Virus record (IMG/VR): IMGVR_UViG_2700989400_000004
Span: 6,939-70,938 of that record
Strand: one strand, 5' to 3'
Length of the DNA stretch: 64,000 bases
From: a virus
Taxonomy: Duplodnaviria; Heunggongvirae; Uroviricota; Caudoviricetes
The notes beneath the pieces were generated by a model that did not search any database, was not told the origin of the DNA, and saw nothing but the letters and a program-made list of their open reading frames with translations. The position numbers and the translations under genes were made by a program. This document shows positions 55,358 through 62,529 of the stretch, piece after piece. The stretch's first letter is position 1; every line of letters starts with the position of its first letter.

Positions 55358-56005
55358 TTATGGCAGATTTACGATCTTCGCGTCCACCACCACGCCAATA
55401 ATTTTTGATTCAGGATTTAGCGGGATTGGTGGATACAACGGATTAAGCGAACGTAAAAGCCTTTGACCTCCATCAATAATCAACTGTTTAAACGTCGGCG
55501 TTTGCCCTTCCTCCAATTGGGCTATAACCAGTTTGCCGTCAATAGCTGGCGCGTGTGGATCAACAAGTATCATCGTTCCCGCCGGGATGCTCAATCCTTG
55601 CGGCGCGTTCATCGATTCACCTTTTGCAACCAGCCAATAACTATCATCCGAACAAATCACGCTAGTGTTAACGTGCGGTAATGATGCGCGTTTTGCTTCT
55701 TCCATGTAGTTTCCTGCGTCTTTCCAGTCAATCACCGGATAACGCCCTACGTCGAGCGGTGGCGCTCCCGGCAGTGTATTAGAAAGTGAATCATCAATAA
55801 CCATCCCATCATGTGTGACCGTAAACTGCCGACGACCAAGCGCCCGCATGATCCGCGCAATATCTTCCAGGTTAGGCTCACGACGACCATTTAGCCAGTG
55901 TGATAAGCCGCCCTTTGTGATCCCCATGAGATCCGCCAATGAATCCTGGCTCATACCTTGCGCCCGCATGAGTTGTTTAGCTAAGTCATACCATTTTGTT
56001 TTCAT
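55358..56005 (-). CDS. cI-like repressor (HTH + LexA-type S24 peptidase domain)
   Basis: N-terminal HTH (…QDSLADLMGITKGGLSHWLNGRREP…) and C-terminal autocleavage domain (…VAKGESMNAP…AGTMILVD…); divergent from replication operon. Confidence 0.8.
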   Translation of the reverse strand: MKTKWYDLAKQLMRAQGMSQDSLADLMGITKGGLSHWLNGRREPNLEDIARIMRALGRRQFTVTHDGMVIDDSLSNTLPGAPPLDVGRYPVIDWKDAGNYMEEAKRASLPHVNTSVICSDDSYWLVAKGESMNAPQGLSIPAGTMILVDPHAPAIDGKLVIAQLEEGQTPTFKQLIIDGGQRLLRSLNPLYPPIPLNPESKIIGVVVDAKIVNLP

Positions 56006-56313
56006 GTCGCTACCCTATCGCCCTAAAAAGTTTGATGCAAGTCACAAAATGTATTTTTCAAGTCTTGACCTAAAAACGCCATTCTGTAAACTTGCAGACA
56101 AGGTAAAGCCAGACTTGCAAGGATGCAAGAAAAAAGATAAGGGAATAGCACAAAAAGGCGCATACCTTAAAAGCTCTTTAAAAACCCGGTGTCGCTGCGA
56201 AGCGAAAAACAAATATCACGCAACGGCGGGATCTGTTGAGCGGTCAATCACTGCTATCTAATGCTAATGGGATACCCGCCCGCGCGTTCATTTTAACCAT
56301 AGGAGAAAAATCA
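56006..56313. promoter_or_regulatory. divergent immunity promoter/operator region
   Basis: 308-bp gap between divergent repressor and rightward operon; repeated CTTGCAAG-type palindromic half-sites (56036-56130); no cro-sized ORF found. Confidence 0.5.
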
Positions 56314-56568
56314 ATGAGTATGCACATGATGACTGAAGCCTGGAAAGTGGAACTTAACAGCCCGATTCAAAAACTTGTCTTAATGGCTTTGGCTGAAAAG
56401 GCGGATAACCGCCGCCACGCCAGGGTGTCACACCAAGAAATCGCAAAAATGTGTGAACTTCCTGTAAATACGGTAATGGTTGCTATCGACGGATTAACGC
56501 ACAAAGGATTTATTTGTAACCCTTACCCGGTAAATGACGTTTACCTGGTAATGCTGCCGGAGGAATGA
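56314..56568 (+). CDS. HTH DNA-binding protein, first gene of rightward operon (Cro/CII position)
   Basis: 85 aa from MSMHMMTEAW…; AGGAG SD; HTH-like …HQEIAKMCELPVNTVMVAIDGL…. Confidence 0.5.
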   Translation: MSMHMMTEAWKVELNSPIQKLVLMALAEKADNRRHARVSHQEIAKMCELPVNTVMVAIDGLTHKGFICNPYPVNDVYLVMLPEE

Positions 56569-56571
56569 TCC

Positions 56572-57639
56572 ATGAAGTGGTTTAAGCATGATAGCGATGC
56601 GAACCGCGATGAAAAACTTCAAAACGTTTTGCTCGATTATGGTCTGGAAGGATACGGTCTTTATTGGTACTGCCTCGAACTAATCACTTATGACGTAGAT
56701 CAGCATAATCTCACTTTCGACCTTCGACATGACGCGAGAATCATCGCGCGAAATGTCGGTTCGACTGAAAAACGTGTAGAAGAAATGATGAAATACTTCA
56801 TCGAAATTGGTTTATTTGAATGTTCTCAAGGCCATATAACATGCTTAAAGTTATTGAAAAGGCTGGACCAATCAATGACTTCTAAGAGTGGTTACAGAGC
56901 TGCTATAAATGCAGCAAAAGAACAATTCAAATTAGAAAAGTTAATCAACCCAACGCCAAAAGGTCATGATAGGGTCATGACCGGGTCATGGCAGGGTCAT
57001 GAATTAGAATTAGAAGAAGAATTAGAAGAAGAAATAGAAAAAGATATATACACTTCGTGTATTAGCGAAAATGAACAAAAAACGGTCAATCAGGGGGGTG
57101 ACTTTCAGATAAGCGAAGCCGCCTTGCGTTGTCTGGCTTTCTACAACGAAAAAGCAGGATGCAAATGTCGTGACGCTAAACCATTCATCGAACTACTGAC
57201 AGAAACAAAAACACGTAAGGCATATACGGAGGAAGAGATCACATTAGTAATTGAGTGGGCTTTAACACAATGGCATAGCCGGAGTGGAGTACCTAAGCCT
57301 ATCAACATTTGCCGGGTAACTAAGTTTGATGGGTATCTGGCTGATGCTGAACAATGGCGAAGAGTTACAGCTACTGTTAACGCTGCTGTCGTGGTATCAG
57401 CATTTAACCAGACATTTGACGGCCTGTTACCGCCTGCCGAACTGGATCGGGATTTGGAACGTAAGATCTATGCGTTCACTGACTACCTGAAAGACAAAAG
57501 CATCACTGGCTTTATCGCTTACTTTGAAGCGTTCAAAAACACGGCTTCAGATTTTTACTTCGGCAATGGCTTTACCGCGACACTTGATTTCCTACTTAAA
57601 CCAAAAACGCTACGTGACACGCGCGCGGGCGTTCTTTGA
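56572..57639 (+). CDS. replication initiator / replisome organizer (O-like)
   Basis: N-terminal MKWFKHDSDANRDEKL… typical of phage replisome-organizer N-domains; conserved phage replication C-terminal region; contains iterons. Confidence 0.75.
   Translation: MKWFKHDSDANRDEKLQNVLLDYGLEGYGLYWYCLELITYDVDQHNLTFDLRHDARIIARNVGSTEKRVEEMMKYFIEIGLFECSQGHITCLKLLKRLDQSMTSKSGYRAAINAAKEQFKLEKLINPTPKGHDRVMTGSWQGHELELEEELEEEIEKDIYTSCISENEQKTVNQGGDFQISEAALRCLAFYNEKAGCKCRDAKPFIELLTETKTRKAYTEEEITLVIEWALTQWHSRSGVPKPINICRVTKFDGYLADAEQWRRVTATVNAAVVVSAFNQTFDGLLPPAELDRDLERKIYAFTDYLKDKSITGFIAYFEAFKNTASDFYFGNGFTATLDFLLKPKTLRDTRAGVL
56961..57050 (+). repeat. putative replication origin: four iterons plus AT-rich tract inside O-like gene
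   Basis: GGGTCATG repeated four times at 11-bp spacing (56962-57001), then aattagaattagaagaagaattagaagaagaaatagaaaaag. Confidence 0.6.
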
Positions 57640-57772
57640 CTATCCATTATTACCAAAAAACCAAAATTACCCACAAAACAAGCTCACCAGCGAGCTAAAT
57701 CGCATGGGGTGCTACACTTGCTTACCTTTTTGCGATTAGCTCGTTAGAAAGCGATTGAGGGAGGATTTAGCT

Positions 57773-57874
57773 ATGAACGGTAAACGCATGTTCGCCCTGG
57801 CTTTCGCGATCGCGATGGCTATCGCTGTTAACGTGATGCTGTTCGGCGGGTTGTACCTGCTTGCGCATCCATAA
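57773..57874 (+). CDS. small hydrophobic membrane peptide (33 aa)
   Basis: MNGKRMFALAFAIAMAIAVNVMLFGGLYLLAHP; GAGGGAGG SD; preceded by long imperfect inverted repeat (57691-57743). Confidence 0.4.
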   Translation: MNGKRMFALAFAIAMAIAVNVMLFGGLYLLAHP

Positions 57875-58025
57875 CTACCCAGCCTGATTAAATTCGATTT
57901 TAAGCCACTTTTTAGCGCCACTGACGCAATAAGACACTGCAACATGTGCAAACGTGTTACGCGGTGGGATTTTGCGTTGTAGCGCGTCTGAGGCGTTATA
58001 TAGAAAATTAAGAAAGGAGGTATAT

Positions 58026-59081
58026 ATGATTGCTACTTATCATATGAAACTCAATTGTAAGGACACGCAATTACTGTCTGTTAATAATCTGGTTTCTGAA
58101 CTTAAGATTGATAGACTTAAATCATTTGTTAAATATTCTGATCTTTACGGATTTGAGGAATACAAGGATTTTATTATTGATGGTGATGATGTGTATATCA
58201 CACCTATAACGTTTATTAGATTCGTTACACCTGGTAAATATAGACATTATGAATATAATGAAAATTGGGTTAAGCCAGTTATTGAATCTTGTGGATTAGT
58301 TGACTTGCAAGATGTCTTTAATAAATATTCAAATAATACCAAAAAAGATAGTCCTTACGCTTATAATTATATTTTATGGTGTAACAACTATGTTGAAACG
58401 AGTGATACTCCTGGTCGATGTTCTGTGTATGTGTCAAAAGAAGATGCTGAAAAGTATAAAAAATGGTTGTTCGTTACTCGCGGAGTATCAATAGAAAAAC
58501 TATGGGTAAGGTTGTTCCATTCAAGCGATATTGCAGATCCAGATACGTTTTTAGCTGAACACCTCAATAATGATGAGTTTACCATTGATTTAAATATTGA
58601 ATATTTTATAGTTAAAACAAATTATGGATATGAAAGGTATATTAGCGATAAGATAGCAGAAAAGTATCATATATGGGGTGAAAGTAAAGGGCTTAGTAAT
58701 AATTTTGAGTGCGGGAATTATAACGACATAGAAAACTTTATTAAATTAAAAAGCGACAAGGATGTAATTGAGGAAATAAAAAAGGAATGCGACGCGAAAT
58801 TATCAGAAATGAGCGGTCATTGTAAAAATATGATTAGAAAGCGTTATGAACACGCTGGTTTAACTATGTATGAAAAACTAAAGGGTGTTAAATTAATAAG
58901 GCAATATCCTGTTAATGTTGCTGGCAATAAGTATTTTATCGATGGCTACGATCCTGTGAATAATGTTGCTGTAGAAATTGATGAATCACATCACAAACGG
59001 CAAGTAAAAAGCGATGCGATAAGACAAAAATGCATTGAAGATTATTTGGGGTGCAAGTTTTTTCGTTGTGCTATATCCTGA
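58026..59081 (+). CDS. AT-rich gene: protein with C-terminal restriction-endonuclease-like domain (candidate defence/abortive-infection protein)
   Basis: 351 aa from MIATYH…; perfect AGGAGG SD; visibly AT-rich versus flanks; C-terminus …YFIDGYDPVNNVAVEIDESHHKRQVKSDAIRQKCIEDYLGCKFFR… resembles DUF559/Vsr-type endonuclease fold. Confidence 0.6.
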   Translation: MIATYHMKLNCKDTQLLSVNNLVSELKIDRLKSFVKYSDLYGFEEYKDFIIDGDDVYITPITFIRFVTPGKYRHYEYNENWVKPVIESCGLVDLQDVFNKYSNNTKKDSPYAYNYILWCNNYVETSDTPGRCSVYVSKEDAEKYKKWLFVTRGVSIEKLWVRLFHSSDIADPDTFLAEHLNNDEFTIDLNIEYFIVKTNYGYERYISDKIAEKYHIWGESKGLSNNFECGNYNDIENFIKLKSDKDVIEEIKKECDAKLSEMSGHCKNMIRKRYEHAGLTMYEKLKGVKLIRQYPVNVAGNKYFIDGYDPVNNVAVEIDESHHKRQVKSDAIRQKCIEDYLGCKFFRCAIS

Positions 59082-59115
59082 TGTATACAAAATGTAAACC
59101 GGAGGAAATAACGTT

Positions 59116-60234
59116 ATGTCACAAAGAAAGATCAGCGATGAACAACTGATCGCTGAGTACGAGAAGGGGAAAACTTACAAGCAAATAGCCGAAGAATATG
59201 GAATGGCAAAACGCAACGTCGAACGGCTGGGCGCACGGCTGGCGAAGCGCGGTTTAATATCCACACGCCGCGCGCCTGGTTTTGGTGTCAATGGTGAATC
59301 ATTGCTCGTTGATAAGGATGGCAATGTGATTATGCGCTGGATTAAAACAGCACGTGATCGCGATGAAATGGAAAGGCTAATGCAAGCGGCTTGCGATGCA
59401 TTCACTGAAGAGATACCCCGCGCGGAGGCCGTGCCAGTGCCTGAGATTGATTTCCAAAAAAGCCTGGCCCTTTATCCGGTGTTCGATCTTCATATCGGTG
59501 CACTTGCGCACAAGGCGGAATGCGGCGAGAGCTACGACACCGGGATCGCTGAACGCGTACTAAATGATTTCTTCGACTACGCGGTAGGCACTGCGCCAAT
59601 GTCTGAAAAGGCTGTTTTGCTGTTGGGTGGGGATCTACTTCATTCTGATGGGATGATCCCGGTTACACCAACAAGCGGTCATATTCTTGATCAGGATAGT
59701 CGCTACGCAAAACTTGTTTACGTGGCGATCCGGTCGGTCCGGCGGGCGGTCGGGAAGATGTTACTAAATCATAAGGACGTCGAGATCCAGGTGCTTAGCG
59801 GAAATCATGATCAATCGGGGATGATTTGGCTACGTGCGGCGCTGGCGGCTTTTTACGAAGATGAACCACGCGTGACGGTTGATGTGTCCCCTGCTATCGT
59901 CCACCACACGCAGTACGGCAAAACATTCCTTGCCTATCATCACGGGCACACTATCAAAAAACCCGAAAATTTGTTGGCGGCCTGCATCTCTGACTGGCGG
60001 GAGGATTTCGGCAAGTCGGCGGCGGTTTACGCCCACTGCGGGCACTGGCACCACCAACGGCTAATTGAATCATCGTTAGGCGTTGTTGAGTATCACGGCA
60101 CGTTAGCGGGTAAAGACGCTTATTCAACGAATGGCGGCTGGCGGTCGCGGCGGCTGGCGGCGGTAATAATTTACAGCCCGGATTATGGGGAAATCGGGCG
60201 CTTTGTTTATTACCCTGAATATCCCATTTTGTAA
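59116..60234 (+). CDS. HTH domain fused to calcineurin-like metallophosphoesterase
   Basis: N-terminal HTH (…KTYKQIAEEYGMAKRNVERL…); phosphoesterase motifs DLHIG, GGDLLH, GNHD, GHWHH; CCGGAGG SD. Confidence 0.6.
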   Translation: MSQRKISDEQLIAEYEKGKTYKQIAEEYGMAKRNVERLGARLAKRGLISTRRAPGFGVNGESLLVDKDGNVIMRWIKTARDRDEMERLMQAACDAFTEEIPRAEAVPVPEIDFQKSLALYPVFDLHIGALAHKAECGESYDTGIAERVLNDFFDYAVGTAPMSEKAVLLLGGDLLHSDGMIPVTPTSGHILDQDSRYAKLVYVAIRSVRRAVGKMLLNHKDVEIQVLSGNHDQSGMIWLRAALAAFYEDEPRVTVDVSPAIVHHTQYGKTFLAYHHGHTIKKPENLLAACISDWREDFGKSAAVYAHCGHWHHQRLIESSLGVVEYHGTLAGKDAYSTNGGWRSRRLAAVIIYSPDYGEIGRFVYYPEYPIL

Positions 60235-60252
60235 ACCGGAGGCAATACCATA

Positions 60253-61674
60253 ATGGTGACTGAGCAAATAAACTCATTACGCCAGGAACGGGAAGCGGCT
60301 GTGATAGGCGGCCTCCTGTTGGGCGGGCTTACCCCTAACGCGCAAGATGTTCTTGCCACGCTCGATCCTGAAGTCTTCACCATTCCACTATATAAACGAG
60401 CGTTTGAGATCATCCGGGCGCAAGCCAGAAACAGAAACCTTATTGACGCGCTGATAGTCGGTGATGAAATCGGTAGCGAAAATTTCATCCCGTTAATGCA
60501 AACGGCGCGGTCGTGTCCATCTGCTGCCAACCTGAAGGGGTACGCCACGCTATTGCAGGAGGAATACCAGCGGCGGCAAATGTTGGAACTGATGGAGGAT
60601 ATCCGCTACAAACTGGAAACCGGGACGCTAGAAGTTGTCAGAGAGACGATGAAATATTTTGATTCCCGGTATTCAAAATTAAAAACAACGAAAGACAAGA
60701 TTATTCCGGTGCTGTTGCGCGACGCGGTACAGGAATATACGGAAGTCTTAAGTAAACGTATGGAATGTGGTGTCAATTCTGACAACATCAAAACAGGGAT
60801 CGAACCACTCGACGAAATGTTAGGCGGTATTAACGCTACTGATCTGGTGCTTATCGCCGGACGCCCTGGGTCTGGTAAATCGGCGTTGGCGTTGGCAATT
60901 GCCCGCGCGGCGGCTGAACGTCCATACCCTGGCGGAGAAGGCCAACGGGTCGGCGTTTTGCTGTTCACGCTTGAAATGTCGCTCGATCAGATGACTGAAC
61001 GCGCGATCGCTGGCGCTGGGAACTTATCAACGGATTGCCTACGTAATCCGGTAAAACTGGACGACGAAGGATGGGCGCACGTTGCGCAGGGAATGAGCGC
61101 ACTTGCCGATCTCGACGTGTGGATTGTTGACGCATCGCAGTTAACGGTCGAGGAAATACGCGCCACCGTCGAACGGATGAAACAGGACCATCCTAACCTG
61201 GGAATGGTAATGATTGACTACATCGGGTTAATGAAGCTGGCTAAGGCCGAACGTCATGATCTCGCGGTAGGGCAATTGTCGTGGTCATTGAAAATGATGG
61301 CGAAAGAGTTGCGCGTGCCAGTGGCGGCGCTGGCGCAATTATCCCGCCGCGTTGAAGAACGACCGAACAAGCGCCCGAACAATTCCGATCTGCGTGATTC
61401 CGGTAATCTGGAACAAGACGCGGACCGGATCATCATGGTCTACCGAGACGGCTACTACAACGAACAATCAGTTGCCCGCGAATACATGGAGATCATCGTT
61501 TCAAAAAACCGTCACGGGAAAACGGGGACTGTTTACCAGCGGTTTGACGATAACGGCAATATCATTCCATGCGACCAGGCCCGCGCCGCGTCCGCTTGCA
61601 TCCAGTCAATGCAACAACGTCCGGCGACAAGCCGATTCTCCCCACGAAATAACCAGAATAACGCATCTTTTTAA
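60253..61674 (+). CDS. DnaB-family replicative helicase
   Basis: Walker A …LIAGRPGSGKSALALAIA…, …DSGNLEQDAD…, …KNRHGKTG…; CCGGAGG SD. Confidence 0.85.
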   Translation: MVTEQINSLRQEREAAVIGGLLLGGLTPNAQDVLATLDPEVFTIPLYKRAFEIIRAQARNRNLIDALIVGDEIGSENFIPLMQTARSCPSAANLKGYATLLQEEYQRRQMLELMEDIRYKLETGTLEVVRETMKYFDSRYSKLKTTKDKIIPVLLRDAVQEYTEVLSKRMECGVNSDNIKTGIEPLDEMLGGINATDLVLIAGRPGSGKSALALAIARAAAERPYPGGEGQRVGVLLFTLEMSLDQMTERAIAGAGNLSTDCLRNPVKLDDEGWAHVAQGMSALADLDVWIVDASQLTVEEIRATVERMKQDHPNLGMVMIDYIGLMKLAKAERHDLAVGQLSWSLKMMAKELRVPVAALAQLSRRVEERPNKRPNNSDLRDSGNLEQDADRIIMVYRDGYYNEQSVAREYMEIIVSKNRHGKTGTVYQRFDDNGNIIPCDQARAASACIQSMQQRPATSRFSPRNNQNNASF

Positions 61675-61753
61675 TTAACTTGAGTAAACGGCTTACCGGA
61701 AAGTTGACCGCTTTCTGGTGGCTGTTTTCGCGCTTAAAACGAGGCGAAAAACA

Positions 61754-62311
61754 ATGAGCATTGAACTTGAAACAAAAGTTATCAATATCCTTGAACTGGA
61801 CGGCATCGCAACAATGCACCAGCTACGCCAGAAAACCGGATTATCAGCGGAATATGACGAGGCCGGATGCTTACCGGAAACAGTTAAACACCTGATCGAT
61901 ATTAACCTGGTCGAACGGGTGTACACATATTTCGGCCCGCGCCGCCGCTTGCTGGGCTATCGAATTAAATATTTATACGAACAACGACGCGAGCGTGTAG
62001 CCGCGTTATTTACTGACTACAACGTTAGAAAGCGAATGAGAGATATTAGCGCGGAAACTGGCATCCCGTGGAATTACCTTTCGCGCACGCTGCGTTTAAT
62101 GGTGCTGGATGAAACACTTTGTATTGATGTCAATAAGCACGGTCTTAACTTTTATTCACTGTTTAAACCTGGGCGCTTCGGTCACGCTAATGATCTCGCG
62201 TTTGATTTTGACAGTCGCCTGAACGAATACCGGAAAAATAACGGCCTGCTACCGGATAAACCAGTATTTGAGATCGAAAAACTTAACGGGGAAACGGGGT
62301 TGGAATTATGA
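61754..62311 (+). CDS. hypothetical protein (185 aa)
   Basis: ATG at 61754 with GAGG SD; protein-like. Confidence 0.45.
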   Translation: MSIELETKVINILELDGIATMHQLRQKTGLSAEYDEAGCLPETVKHLIDINLVERVYTYFGPRRRLLGYRIKYLYEQRRERVAALFTDYNVRKRMRDISAETGIPWNYLSRTLRLMVLDETLCIDVNKHGLNFYSLFKPGRFGHANDLAFDFDSRLNEYRKNNGLLPDKPVFEIEKLNGETGLEL

Positions 62312-62529
62312 GGCGAGTAATCTTTTATTCAGTTGAAACATTCATTGATGAATCACATTTTCGTTTTCCGTGCGATTCTCGCGGCGCGATGGTTTATACA
62401 CCTCCACTAATGCGGAAATATAAATACGTAAAATTTAAACGGGTTTTTGTTCCAATTCGTGAAGCGTTGCAGGCGCTGCGCGGGGAATTAAGAAACACAA
62501 TGCGGATTGTGTAAAAAAAGGGGGGGATT

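What the first reader, a model, noticed from the sequence alone, without database searches (positions are those of the whole stretch)
59116..60234. HTH-metallophosphoesterase fusion between replication initiator and helicase
Complete calcineurin-like phosphoesterase motif set (D-x-H, GD, GNHD, GHxH) is fused to an N-terminal helix-turn-helix. Lambdoid phages carry a stand-alone phosphatase (NinI-type) in the nin region, not an HTH fusion in the helicase-loader position. It may replace a P-like loader, act as a nuclease/phosphodiesterase, or partner with the adjacent endonuclease-domain gene.
Basis: partly seen in the sequence, partly recalled or inferred. Interest (0 to 1): 0.55.

Follow-up and report, generated by a model that had tools for sequence, protein, structure and literature searches.

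The report
Phage HTH-metallophosphoesterase, T1 gp16 family
The gene is a real and intact fusion of a DNA-binding domain to a metal-dependent phosphoesterase, but it belongs to a very large, already catalogued and biochemically untested phage family (the phage T1 gp16 "DNA repair exonuclease" family) and is not a new kind of helicase loader.

Summary

- **The fusion is not unusual.** The protein matches PHROG 704 over its full length (E 1e-140). Homologs occur in 2,039 phage records, and it is a persistent core gene of T1-like phages.
- **It is not tied to a helicase.** In other lineages the gene sits next to lysis, nucleotide-kinase or tail genes, and no DnaB homolog was found in T1.
- **The helicase does not need it in general.** P22, which has a related helicase, has no such gene, and about 480 E. 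coli genomes carry related prophage helicases with no MPE match.
- **The DUF559 neighbour is not a partner.** It occupies a variable cargo slot.

In temperate mEpimmI-type prophages (35 of 5,426 E. coli genomes) the MPE-helicase pair is fixed and under strong purifying selection (dN/dS about 0.07). The most likely function is a DNA-tethered nuclease that acts during lytic DNA metabolism. The functional precedents are T5 A1 and mycobacteriophage Gp48. The biochemistry is untested.

The parts
59116..60234 (+). HTH-metallophosphoesterase gene (372 aa), a member of PHROG 704 / the phage T1 gp16 family
   Evidence: ORF. phrog_704 at E 1.2e-140, full length. 95% identical to mEp013_11 and 56% to T1 gp16. 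dN/dS about 0.07 among 15 temperate copies.
59137..59247 (+). N-terminal three-helix HTH (residues 8-44). The presumed recognition helix is about residues 32-44, 'KRNVERLGARLAKRG'.
   Evidence: AF2 helices 8-16, 21-28 and 32-44. Weak Pfam hits to Rrf2, Sigma70_r4_2 and HTH_28. Clear HTH hits in relatives. The third helix is conserved across the mEpimmI, T1-like and Jersey-like copies.
59287..59349 (+). Conserved beta-hairpin (residues 58-78, with G69 and W75 conserved in 94-96% of the family). It is more conserved than the HTH, so it is probably part of the catalytic module.
   Evidence: AF2 strands 58-65 and 71-78. Conservation.
59452..60219 (+). Metallophosphoesterase (calcineurin-like) catalytic domain, residues 113-368
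59485..59493 (+). MPE motif I, D124-L-H126
   Evidence: 100% conserved.
59629..59643 (+). MPE motif II, G172-D173-L-L-H176
   Evidence: D173 is 100% conserved and H176 97%.
59665..59703 (+). Family-specific conserved loop and helix start, T184-P-x-S-G-H189-x-L-D192-x-D194-x-R196. This is a candidate substrate-specificity element.
   Evidence: T184 98%, D192 95%, D194 92% and R196 95% conserved. Residues 180-188 form a low-pLDDT loop in the model.
59800..59811 (+). MPE motif III, G229-N230-H231-D232
   Evidence: N230 and H231 are 99% conserved.
59938..59949 (+). MPE motif IV, H275-H276-G-H278
   Evidence: H276 is 100% conserved.
60040..60051 (+). MPE motif V, G309-H310-W-H312
   Evidence: H310 is 95% conserved and H312 99%.
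59094..59110 (+). Left copy of a 17-nt direct repeat, GTAAACCGGAGGAAATA, which contains the Shine-Dalgarno sequence of the MPE gene
   Evidence: 2 matches in the window against 0.04 expected by chance. Present in nearly all the temperate-lineage loci examined and absent from the T1-like and Jersey-like loci examined.
60231..60247 (+). Right copy of the repeat, GTAAACCGGAGGCAATA. It overlaps the MPE stop codon and carries the helicase Shine-Dalgarno sequence.
60253..61674 (+). DnaB-type replicative helicase, always paired with the MPE gene in this temperate lineage
   Evidence: DnaB_C at 8.7e-76. 57% identical to P22 gp12. The MPE+helicase pair occurs in 35 of 5,426 E. coli genomes.
56572..57639 (+). 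Lin1244_N / O-like replication initiator, in the same rightward operon
   Evidence: Pfam Lin1244_N at 3e-11. phrog_20981, phrog_428 and phrog_345.
57954..59081 (+). Variable-slot cargo gene with a DUF559 / methyl-directed-REase-like C-terminus. It provides context only and is not a partner of the MPE gene.
   Evidence: The slot content differs among prophages.

Best explanation
The gene encodes a catalytically competent binuclear-metal phosphodiesterase that an N-terminal HTH domain tethers to DNA. It is an ordinary member of the widespread phage HTH-MPE family (PHROG 704, T1 gp16).

Its most likely activity is that of a stand-alone Mn2+/Mg2+-dependent DNA nuclease that needs no Rad50/SbcC-type partner. 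It would act during lytic growth on DNA ends or structures that arise in replication and recombination.

In this mEpimmI-type temperate phage it is co-transcribed with the initiator and the DnaB-type helicase from the early rightward operon. It appears to have been inserted as a cassette just upstream of the helicase gene.

Shown here: the ORF, the motifs, the fold, family membership, the distribution, purifying selection, and the absence of a conserved partner or of a universal link to a helicase.

Inferred, not shown: that the substrate is DNA, that the protein acts as a nuclease, and that its role is in replication and recombination.
For: - **Active site.** The five-motif site is intact. 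The ligands are invariant in 32 close homologs and 95-100% conserved across 149 diverse representatives.
- **DNA-binding domain.** An N-terminal HTH is ancestral to the family.
- **Conserved basic residues.** Several are conserved: R196 at 95% and R252 at 93% across the diverse representatives, and R206 and R362 invariant among six members down to 30% identity.
- **Selection.** dN/dS is about 0.07 in both the N-terminal part and the MPE domain.
- **Gene context here.** The gene lies in the replication operon, between the initiator and the helicase, with a terminator-like hairpin only after the helicase.
- **Gene context in T1-like phages.** It is the last gene of the block helicase, VRR-NUC, Dam methylase and so on.
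- **Precedents.** Two phage stand-alone MPEs are linked to DNA damage. T5 A1 is necessary and sufficient for host DNA degradation (bioRxiv 10.64898/2026.04.02.716235). Mycobacteriophage Gp48 has phosphodiesterase activity and damages host DNA (PMC12287305).
Against: - No member of this family has been assayed, as far as the searched literature shows.
- The structural scores do not separate nucleases from small-molecule phosphodiesterases. MJ0936 scores 12.4 and LpxH 11.6 against SbcD at 12.8.
- There is no Mre11-type capping domain, and the neighbour census found no Rad50/SbcC partner.
- Sequence profiles do not reach any solved structure.
- The two family-specific loops are modelled with low confidence.
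- Recurrent neighbours in other phages include nucleotide kinases and a dNTP pyrophosphohydrolase. These fit a nucleotide-pool role equally well.
Confidence: 0.45

Rival explanations
1. Host-chromosome DNase used for host takeover, nucleotide salvage or counter-defence. The enzyme would degrade bacterial DNA during lytic growth, as T5 A1 and mycobacteriophage Gp48 do, and so supply dNMPs and silence host defence genes.
For: - T5 A1 is a putative MPE described as resembling DSB-repair nucleases and polymerase proofreading subunits. It is necessary and sufficient for host DNA degradation.
- Many members of the A1 family also carry an N-terminal HTH.
- The MPE-only profile comparison gives 47% probability, E 2e-4, with motifs III-V and the 'NHD.....WL' extension in register.
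- Gp48 is a precedent.
- Neighbours in other phages include dNMP/nucleotide kinases, PNK and a dATP/dGTP pyrophosphohydrolase.
- The third HTH helix is conserved across unrelated enterobacterial phages. This fits a host or generic DNA target better than a phage-specific site.
Against: - In this temperate phage the gene lies in the early rightward operon with the replication genes. By inference, that operon is transcribed before the lysis-lysogeny decision, and an unrestricted host DNase there would be hard to reconcile with lysogeny.
- Homology to A1 is not established. The full-length profile comparison gives only 18% probability, and the families are different PHROGs.
- No toxicity or DNA-degradation data exist for this family.
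Confidence: 0.25
2. The substrate is not DNA. The enzyme could be a phosphodiesterase or phosphatase acting on nucleotides, on cyclic or oligonucleotide immune signals, on RNA 2',3'-cyclic phosphate ends, or on phosphoproteins. The HTH would then serve for localisation or autoregulation.
For: - MJ0936, YfcE, Rv0805, LpxH and Ap4A-hydrolase-type MPEs score nearly as well as the nucleases.
- The gene is adjacent to polynucleotide kinase or nucleotide kinases in some T1-like phages.
- The family-specific loops could form a small-ligand pocket.
Against: - A DNA-binding HTH is conserved throughout the family and is under the same purifying selection as the enzyme domain.
- There is no PADLOC or defence-related match.
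- PPP-type protein phosphatases are the poorest structural matches.
Confidence: 0.2
3. Helicase loader or replisome adaptor. The protein would recruit or load the adjacent DnaB-type helicase at the origin and so take the place of lambda P.
For: - The MPE and helicase genes are 18 bp apart.
- They are always paired in this lineage, in 35 of 35 E. coli genomes and 7 of 7 phage records.
- The variable cargo slot lies upstream of the pair, not between the two genes.
Against: - There is no similarity to lambda P, DnaC or other loaders.
- The invariant catalytic residues point to an enzyme.
- T1 has the gene, but no DnaB homolog was found in its genome.
- Elsewhere the gene sits beside lysis or tail genes.
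- P22's related helicase works with gene 18 alone.
- The pairing comes from a single lineage, so it is only one evolutionary event.
Confidence: 0.05
4. Primarily a transcription regulator. A sigma-region-4 / LuxR-like HTH would control late or lysis genes, and the MPE domain would act as a sensor or accessory.
For: - The HTH resembles Sigma70_r4_2, GerE and HTH_1.
- The gene is recurrently next to lysis cassettes in T1-like, Vibrio and Rhodobacter phages.
- T5 A1 is reported to interact with RNA polymerase.
Against: - In T1 an annotated terminator separates the gene from the lysis genes.
- Here it is far from any lysis genes.
- The catalytic residues are more conserved than the HTH.
Confidence: 0.05

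Closest known systems
PHROG 704 'DNA repair exonuclease' (phage T1 gp16 / ST16; 'putative phosphoesterase' of T1-like, Jersey-like and related phages)
   Same: Full-length match at E 1e-140. Identity is 56-67% to T1-like copies and 44% to Jersey-like copies. The HTH, hairpin, linker and MPE architecture and all catalytic residues are the same.
   Different: Here the gene is in a temperate mEpimmI-type prophage, between the initiator and a DnaB helicase, and it is flanked by a 17-nt repeat. In T1-like phages it precedes the lysis cassette. The family name is a prediction only; no biochemistry was found.
Mre11 / SbcD nucleases
   Different: The target has no capping domain and no Rad50/SbcC partner gene. 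It has an N-terminal HTH instead. Sequence identity is 11-19%. The margin over non-nuclease MPEs is small.
Phage T5 A1 (phrog_1745), putative MPE needed for host DNA degradation
   Same: A phage stand-alone MPE described as resembling Mre11 and DP1. Many members of the A1 family carry an N-terminal HTH. The motif III extension 'NHD.....WL' is shared, and motifs III-V align.
   Different: A1 is 556 aa, with a region of about 300 residues before its motif I. The profile-profile probability is only 18-47%. It is a different PHROG. A1 is a pre-early gene of virulent Demerecviridae.
Mycobacteriophage cluster A MPE (A10ZJ24 Gp48)
   Same: A phage MPE with all five motifs. Phosphodiesterase activity has been shown, and it damages host DNA (PMC12287305).
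   Different: The paper describes it as an MPE-like protein and mentions no HTH. Homology to the target beyond the superfamily level was not tested. Mycobacterium phages are not among the ten most frequent host names in the tblastn search with the target.
Lambda NinI / lambda Ser-Thr phosphatase (PPP family)
   Same: Same MPE superfamily, and also a phage enzyme.

Membership tests
Calcineurin-like metallophosphoesterase superfamily | Five ordered motifs: DxH, GDxx(D/H), GNH(D/E), H, GHxH | tested here: met
   D124-x-H126, G172-D173-x-x-H176, G229-N-H-D232, H276 and G309-H310-x-H312. They are 95-100% conserved across the family.
Calcineurin-like metallophosphoesterase superfamily | Alpha/beta sandwich MPE fold | tested here: met
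Calcineurin-like metallophosphoesterase superfamily | Score above the Pfam Metallophos or Metallophos_2 gathering threshold | tested here: not met
   The window protein gives no hit at E <= 0.1. T1 gp16 scores 18.8 bits and AG11 gp22 19.4 bits against a cut-off of 21.5. 26 of 107 relatives hit at E <= 0.01. The clade is divergent, so superfamily membership rests on the motifs and the fold.
PHROG 704 (T1 gp16-type HTH-MPE) | Full-length profile match and the same domain order | tested here: met
   E 1.2e-140, residues 4-368 against profile positions 2-387 of 390.
Mre11/SbcD | C-terminal capping domain following the MPE domain | tested here: not met
   The protein ends at residue 372, directly after the last MPE strands.
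Mre11/SbcD | Rad50/SbcC-type ATPase partner encoded alongside | tested here: not met
   No such family appears among the recurrent or top-scoring neighbour families listed for 111 neighbour proteins from 16 non-redundant loci. There is none among the window neighbours scanned.
Mre11/SbcD | Mn2+-dependent exo/endonuclease activity on DNA | not testable with these tools
   Requires purified protein.
Lambda P / DnaC-type helicase loader | Sequence homology to a known loader family | tested here: not met
   No loader family appears in the Pfam, PHROG or NCBIfam hits.
Lambda P / DnaC-type helicase loader | Co-occurrence with a DnaB-type helicase across the family | tested here: not met
   No DnaB homolog was found in the T1 genome by tblastn with the window helicase. 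Neighbours in other lineages are lysis, tail or nucleotide-metabolism genes. The pairing is constant only in the mEpimmI lineage.
Lambda NinI / PPP phosphatase | PPP fold subtype and signatures | tested here: not met
T5 A1 family (phrog_1745) | Profile-level homology over the protein | tested here: inconclusive
   hhalign gives 18% probability for the full profiles and 47% (E 2e-4) for the MPE domain alone. The N-terminal regions give 3%.
PolD DP1 / polymerase B-subunit | MPE domain preceded by an OB fold and partnered with a polymerase catalytic subunit | tested here: not met
   The N-terminal region is an HTH plus a hairpin, not an OB fold. No polymerase gene was found among the window neighbours scanned. 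The automatic names 'DNA polymerase II small subunit' on some relatives probably reflect fold similarity only.

The most novel reading that the evidence does not exclude
The HTH-MPE family (PHROG 704) could be a distant sister of T5 A1. It would then be the unidentified DNase behind host-DNA breakdown by T1-like phages. That T1 degrades host DNA is my recollection and was not verified here.

On this reading, temperate mEpimmI phages captured the gene as a cassette in front of their helicase, where its activity must be restrained or redirected to be compatible with lysogeny. Restraint could come through the HTH, through timing, or through the helicase. This would make the prophage copy a tractable model for how a phage nuclease tells host DNA from phage DNA.
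Probability: 0.2. Interest if true: 0.6.

Novelty: new member of a known kind. Interest (0 to 1): 0.3.

Why it matters
For this window the result is mainly a correction: the gene is not a novel loader-replacing fusion. It is a copy of one of the commonest uncharacterised phage enzymes.

The family itself deserves attention.
- It has thousands of sequence clusters.
- It is a core gene of T1-like phages.
- It occurs in Jersey-like, Casjensviridae, Vibrio, Campylobacter and Flavobacterium phages.
- It is under strong purifying selection.
- No experimental function for it was found in the searched literature.

Two other phage stand-alone MPEs have recently been tied to host-DNA destruction (T5 A1 and mycobacteriophage Gp48). 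A single biochemical and genetic study of T1 gp16 or of this prophage copy would therefore annotate thousands of phage genes. It would also show whether host-DNA degradation by MPE nucleases is a general phage strategy.

Tried and rejected
- **Sequence searches against solved structures found nothing.** I tried both the single sequence and the profile. Only marginal HTH matches came back.
- **NCBIfam and PADLOC gave no family for the target**.
- **The genome-contig scan was unhelpful.** It returned two loci. The first is a 46.7-kb contig, which is the size of a T1-like phage genome.
- **The afdb50 fold library was unavailable**.
It worked with A2.
- **A BLAST clustering of neighbours found one recurrent cluster.** Across 16 non-redundant loci, only one cluster recurred, in 4 loci. 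By size and position it is probably an endolysin. The PHROG census confirmed that there is no universal partner.
- **The literature searches found genome-annotation mentions only.**
  - I searched for T1 gp16, Drexlerviridae phosphoesterase/exonuclease, and escape mutants.
  - A phage Tn-seq preprint and the mEpimmI paper say nothing about this gene.
- **Homing endonuclease was considered and rejected.** An HTH plus a nuclease domain is the right architecture. However, the gene is a persistent, syntenic, strongly conserved core gene, which is not how homing endonucleases behave.
- **A prophage defence gene was considered and rejected.** The gene is a core gene in virulent phages, it lies in the replication operon, and it has no PADLOC hit.
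Full report
**1. Observation**

The ORF listing returns an ORF at exactly 59116..60234 on the + strand. It starts with ATG and encodes 372 aa. A GGAGG Shine-Dalgarno sequence lies 8 nt upstream.

A regex check finds each calcineurin-type motif once and in the canonical order:
- D124-L-H126
- G172-D173-L-L-H176
- G229-N-H-D232
- H275-H276-G-H278
- G309-H310-W-H312

The predicted metal ligands are invariant in an alignment of 32 homologs at 58-94% identity. They remain invariant in six members down to 30% identity, from T1-like, Jersey-like, Vibrio and Rhodobacter phages. Across 149 representatives that are less than 50% identical to one another, they are 95-100% conserved.

An AlphaFold2 model built on the 32-sequence alignment has pLDDT 76.4 and pTM 0.67. 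It shows:
- three short N-terminal helices (8-16, 21-28, 32-44);
- a beta-hairpin (58-78);
- a long linker helix (79-97);
- an alpha/beta sandwich (114-363).

Structure searches confirm the MPE fold.
- Foldseek ranks archaeal Mre11 first, at E 3.5e-6.

The HTH is only marginal in the window protein itself (Pfam E 0.014-0.08). It is clear in relatives: Sigma70_r4_2 at 1.5e-9, GerE at 2.4e-8, HTH_1 at 4e-6 and HTH_8 at 9e-6.

One qualification applies. The Pfam Metallophos models do not reach significance on the window protein, and only about a quarter of relatives reach E <= 0.01. This is a divergent MPE clade.

**2. What it is**

The protein matches PHROG 704, 'DNA repair exonuclease', over its whole length at E 1.2e-140. 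The family is very large.
- tblastn finds homologs in 2,039 of 50,697 phage records, and 1,962 of them cover at least 80% of the query.
  - One record is 95% identical: the temperate coliphage mEp013.
  - T1-like Drexlerviridae are 55-67% identical.
  - Jersey-like phages are about 44% identical.
  - Vibrio, Rhodobacter, Campylobacter and Flavobacterium phages also have copies.
- An exhaustive profile search gives 5,525 clusters at 50% identity with E <= 1e-3, and 1,407 with E <= 1e-30. Nearly all of the best 150 are 360-480 aa.
- In phage T1 the ortholog is gp16 (ST16), at 56% identity.
- A 2026 pangenome study classes the gene as 'persistent' in Drexlerviridae. The module exonuclease-holin-endolysin-spanin is present in 508 of 522 genomes (PMC13164509).

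I found no experimental work on any member. The names in use are predictions: 'DNA repair exonuclease', 'putative phosphoesterase', 'proof-reading exonuclease' and 'DNA polymerase II small subunit'.

**3. Context in this window and its lineage**

The surrounding genes identify a temperate phage early region:
- an S24/HTH repressor (55358-56005, minus strand);
- then, on the + strand, an HTH_36 protein and a Lin1244_N/O-like initiator (56572-57639);
- a 375-aa protein with a DUF559-like C-terminus (57954-59081);
- the target;
- a DnaB-type helicase (60253-61674);
- NinB, further along.

On the + strand, the only terminator-like hairpin in 55900-62400 follows the helicase, at 61693-61721. The target is therefore probably co-transcribed with the replication genes.

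The closest phages are mEp013, mEp010, mEp021, mEp044, mEp515, mEp554 and MagusPhagus. The mEp phages among them form the 'mEpimmI' group of Nus-dependent temperate coliphages. The paper on that group does not discuss this gene (PMC11893012).

In complete E. coli genomes, 35 of 5,426 carry the MPE-helicase pair.

The slot between the initiator and the MPE gene varies among these prophages. It holds a DUF559 protein, a zinc-ribbon protein, Ant, BRO or Rha, or it is empty. The DUF559 gene is therefore exchangeable cargo and not a partner.

The MPE and helicase genes are always adjacent, 18 bp apart. A 17-nt direct repeat, GTAAACCGGAGG(A/C)AATA, brackets the MPE gene exactly. One copy carries its own Shine-Dalgarno sequence. 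The other overlaps its stop codon and carries the helicase's Shine-Dalgarno sequence. The window has 2 matches against 0.04 expected by chance. The repeat is present in nearly all the temperate loci examined and absent from the T1-like and Jersey-like loci examined. It looks like the footprint of a cassette insertion in front of the helicase gene.

Among 15 temperate copies, the median dN/dS is 0.068. The N-terminal 105 codons give 0.071 and the MPE domain gives 0.066. Both domains are under strong purifying selection.

**4. Is it a helicase loader?**

The evidence is against it.
- There is no similarity to lambda P, DnaC or any other loader.
- The catalytic residues are the most conserved part of the protein.
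- T1 has the gene, but tblastn at E < 1e-3 detects no DnaB-type helicase and no Lin1244 initiator in its genome.
- In other lineages the gene has other neighbours.
  - In T1-like phages it ends the block helicase, VRR-NUC, Dam and so on, and it precedes the lysis cassette. In T1 an annotated terminator lies between them.
  - In the Jersey-like phage AG11 it sits between tail-gene blocks.
  - In a Vibrio phage and in Rhodobacter phage RcKeef it is next to endolysin and holin genes.
- A census of 111 neighbour proteins from 16 non-redundant loci found no universal partner.
  - The most recurrent families were endolysins, nucleotide kinases, a dATP/dGTP pyrophosphohydrolase and the large terminase.
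  - No Rad50/SbcC-type family appears among the recurrent or top-scoring families listed.
- The helicase here is 57% identical to P22 gp12, whose gene follows gene 18 directly.
- About 480 E. coli genomes carry related prophage helicases with no MPE match.

The strict pairing in the mEpimmI lineage reflects one evolutionary event. It cannot carry the loader hypothesis on its own.

**5. Most likely mechanism**

The evidence that bears on mechanism is:
- an ancestral DNA-binding HTH;
- an intact binuclear-metal site;
- best fold matches that include the DNA-acting MPEs (SbcD/Mre11 and DP1);
- conserved basic residues (R196 and R252 across the diverse representatives; R206 and R362 among the six members);
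- placement in replication and recombination blocks.

Taken together, the best-supported reading is a stand-alone, DNA-tethered, metal-dependent nuclease or phosphodiesterase that acts during lytic DNA metabolism.

Two family-specific, highly conserved loops are modelled with low confidence. They are T184-P-x-S-G-H-x-L-D-x-D-x-R196 and D334...G341-W-x-S344. They probably shape substrate specificity.

Which DNA is the target remains open. Two recent precedents make a host-chromosome DNase a serious rival.
- T5 A1 is a putative MPE, described as resembling DSB-repair nucleases and polymerase proofreading subunits. It is necessary and sufficient for host DNA degradation (bioRxiv 10.64898/2026.04.02.716235).
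- Mycobacteriophage Gp48 is an MPE with phosphodiesterase activity that disrupts host DNA integrity (PMC12287305).

I tested the relationship to A1.
- Many A1-family members also carry an N-terminal HTH.
- A1 shares the motif III extension 'NHD.....WL'.
- Profile-profile probability is only 18% for the full-length profiles and 47% (E 2e-4) for the MPE domain alone.

I therefore treat A1 as an analogue, and at most a distant sister, not as the same family.

One argument weighs against an unrestricted host DNase here. The gene lies in an early operon of a temperate phage. By inference, that operon is expressed before the lysis-lysogeny decision.

Small-molecule or RNA-end substrates cannot be excluded either. 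MJ0936, LpxH, Rv0805 and YfcE score almost as well as the nucleases.

**6. Comparison with known families, and novelty**

- Membership in the MPE superfamily is supported by motifs and fold, though not by the Pfam threshold.
- Membership in PHROG 704 is supported.
- Membership in Mre11/SbcD is not supported, because there is no capping domain and no ATPase partner.
- Membership in the PPP/NinI family is not supported.
- Membership in a helicase-loader family is not supported.
- Membership in the DP1 family is not supported.

The gene is a new member of a known, catalogued kind. The only features specific to this lineage are its capture by a temperate phage directly upstream of a DnaB-type helicase and the flanking repeat.

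**7. Verdict**

Interest for this finding is low to moderate, at 0.3. The residual value lies in the family as a whole. It is very abundant, strongly conserved and biochemically unexplored, and it has a plausible link to host-DNA degradation that can be tested directly.

Noticed in passing
window 57954-59081 (+): A 375-aa, low-GC (about 40%) gene. Its C-terminal ~65 residues match DUF559 (Pfam E 2e-4) and PADLOC mREase_II, 'Type II methyl-directed restriction enzyme' (E 4.7e-8). It has no PHROG match. It occupies a slot that holds different cargo in related prophages (zinc-ribbon protein, Ant, BRO, Rha, or nothing). It may be a prophage-borne defence gene or a homing-type endonuclease.
   Followed up: partly
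window 59094-59110 and 60231-60247 (+): A 17-nt direct repeat, GTAAACCGGAGG(A/C)AATA, brackets the MPE gene exactly and supplies the Shine-Dalgarno sequences of both the MPE and helicase genes. The window has 2 matches against 0.04 expected by chance. It is present in nearly all the temperate-lineage loci examined and absent from the T1-like and Jersey-like loci examined. It looks like a cassette-insertion footprint.
   Followed up: partly
window 61693-61721 (+): A 12-pair terminator-like hairpin followed by a T-rich tail, directly after the helicase stop codon. It overlaps the listed GTG start (61718) of the next ORF. It is the only + strand terminator-like site in 55900-62400, and it may be a site for Nus-dependent antitermination.
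   Followed up: no
L002 (haarsle), L006 (T1), L007 (Vibrio phage 99E28-5), L008 (RcKeef): In several unrelated virulent phage lineages the HTH-MPE gene lies immediately beside the lysis cassette. Endolysins were the most frequent annotated neighbour family in a census of 16 non-redundant loci. It is unclear whether this reflects a module boundary or a functional link.
   Followed up: partly
T5 A1 family proteins P0343-P0385 (alignment A5): Many relatives of T5 A1 of about 530 aa (44-49% identical to A1) carry recognisable HTH domains (HTH_23, HTH_38, HTH_7, HTH_3). The A1 family therefore also includes HTH-MPE fusions. The T5 preprint I read does not mention an HTH.
   Followed up: partly
window 61718-62311 (+): A 197-aa protein downstream of the helicase with weak winged-HTH, MarR-like (phrog_1687, E 1e-6) and Ren-like exclusion (phrog_142, E 2e-4) similarity. 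It is 84-92% identical in two related loci and only 37% identical in a third, so it is another variable position.
   Followed up: no
L009 (Nitratidesulfovibrio liaohensis NZ_VSMK01000220.1, a 46.7-kb contig) and L010 (Bacillota MAG); also P0058 'Streptococcus phage MBBL140' and H97 'Staphylococcus phage SA 1298 Kay': These records carry close homologs of enterobacterial phage genes under unlikely host labels. L009, L010 and P0058 hold T1-like copies of the MPE gene at 54-65% identity. H97 holds a helicase gene with the same identity to the window helicase as the P22-type Salmonella phages (about 57%). They are probably contaminating coliphage or Salmonella-phage sequences, or mislabelled records.
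   Followed up: no
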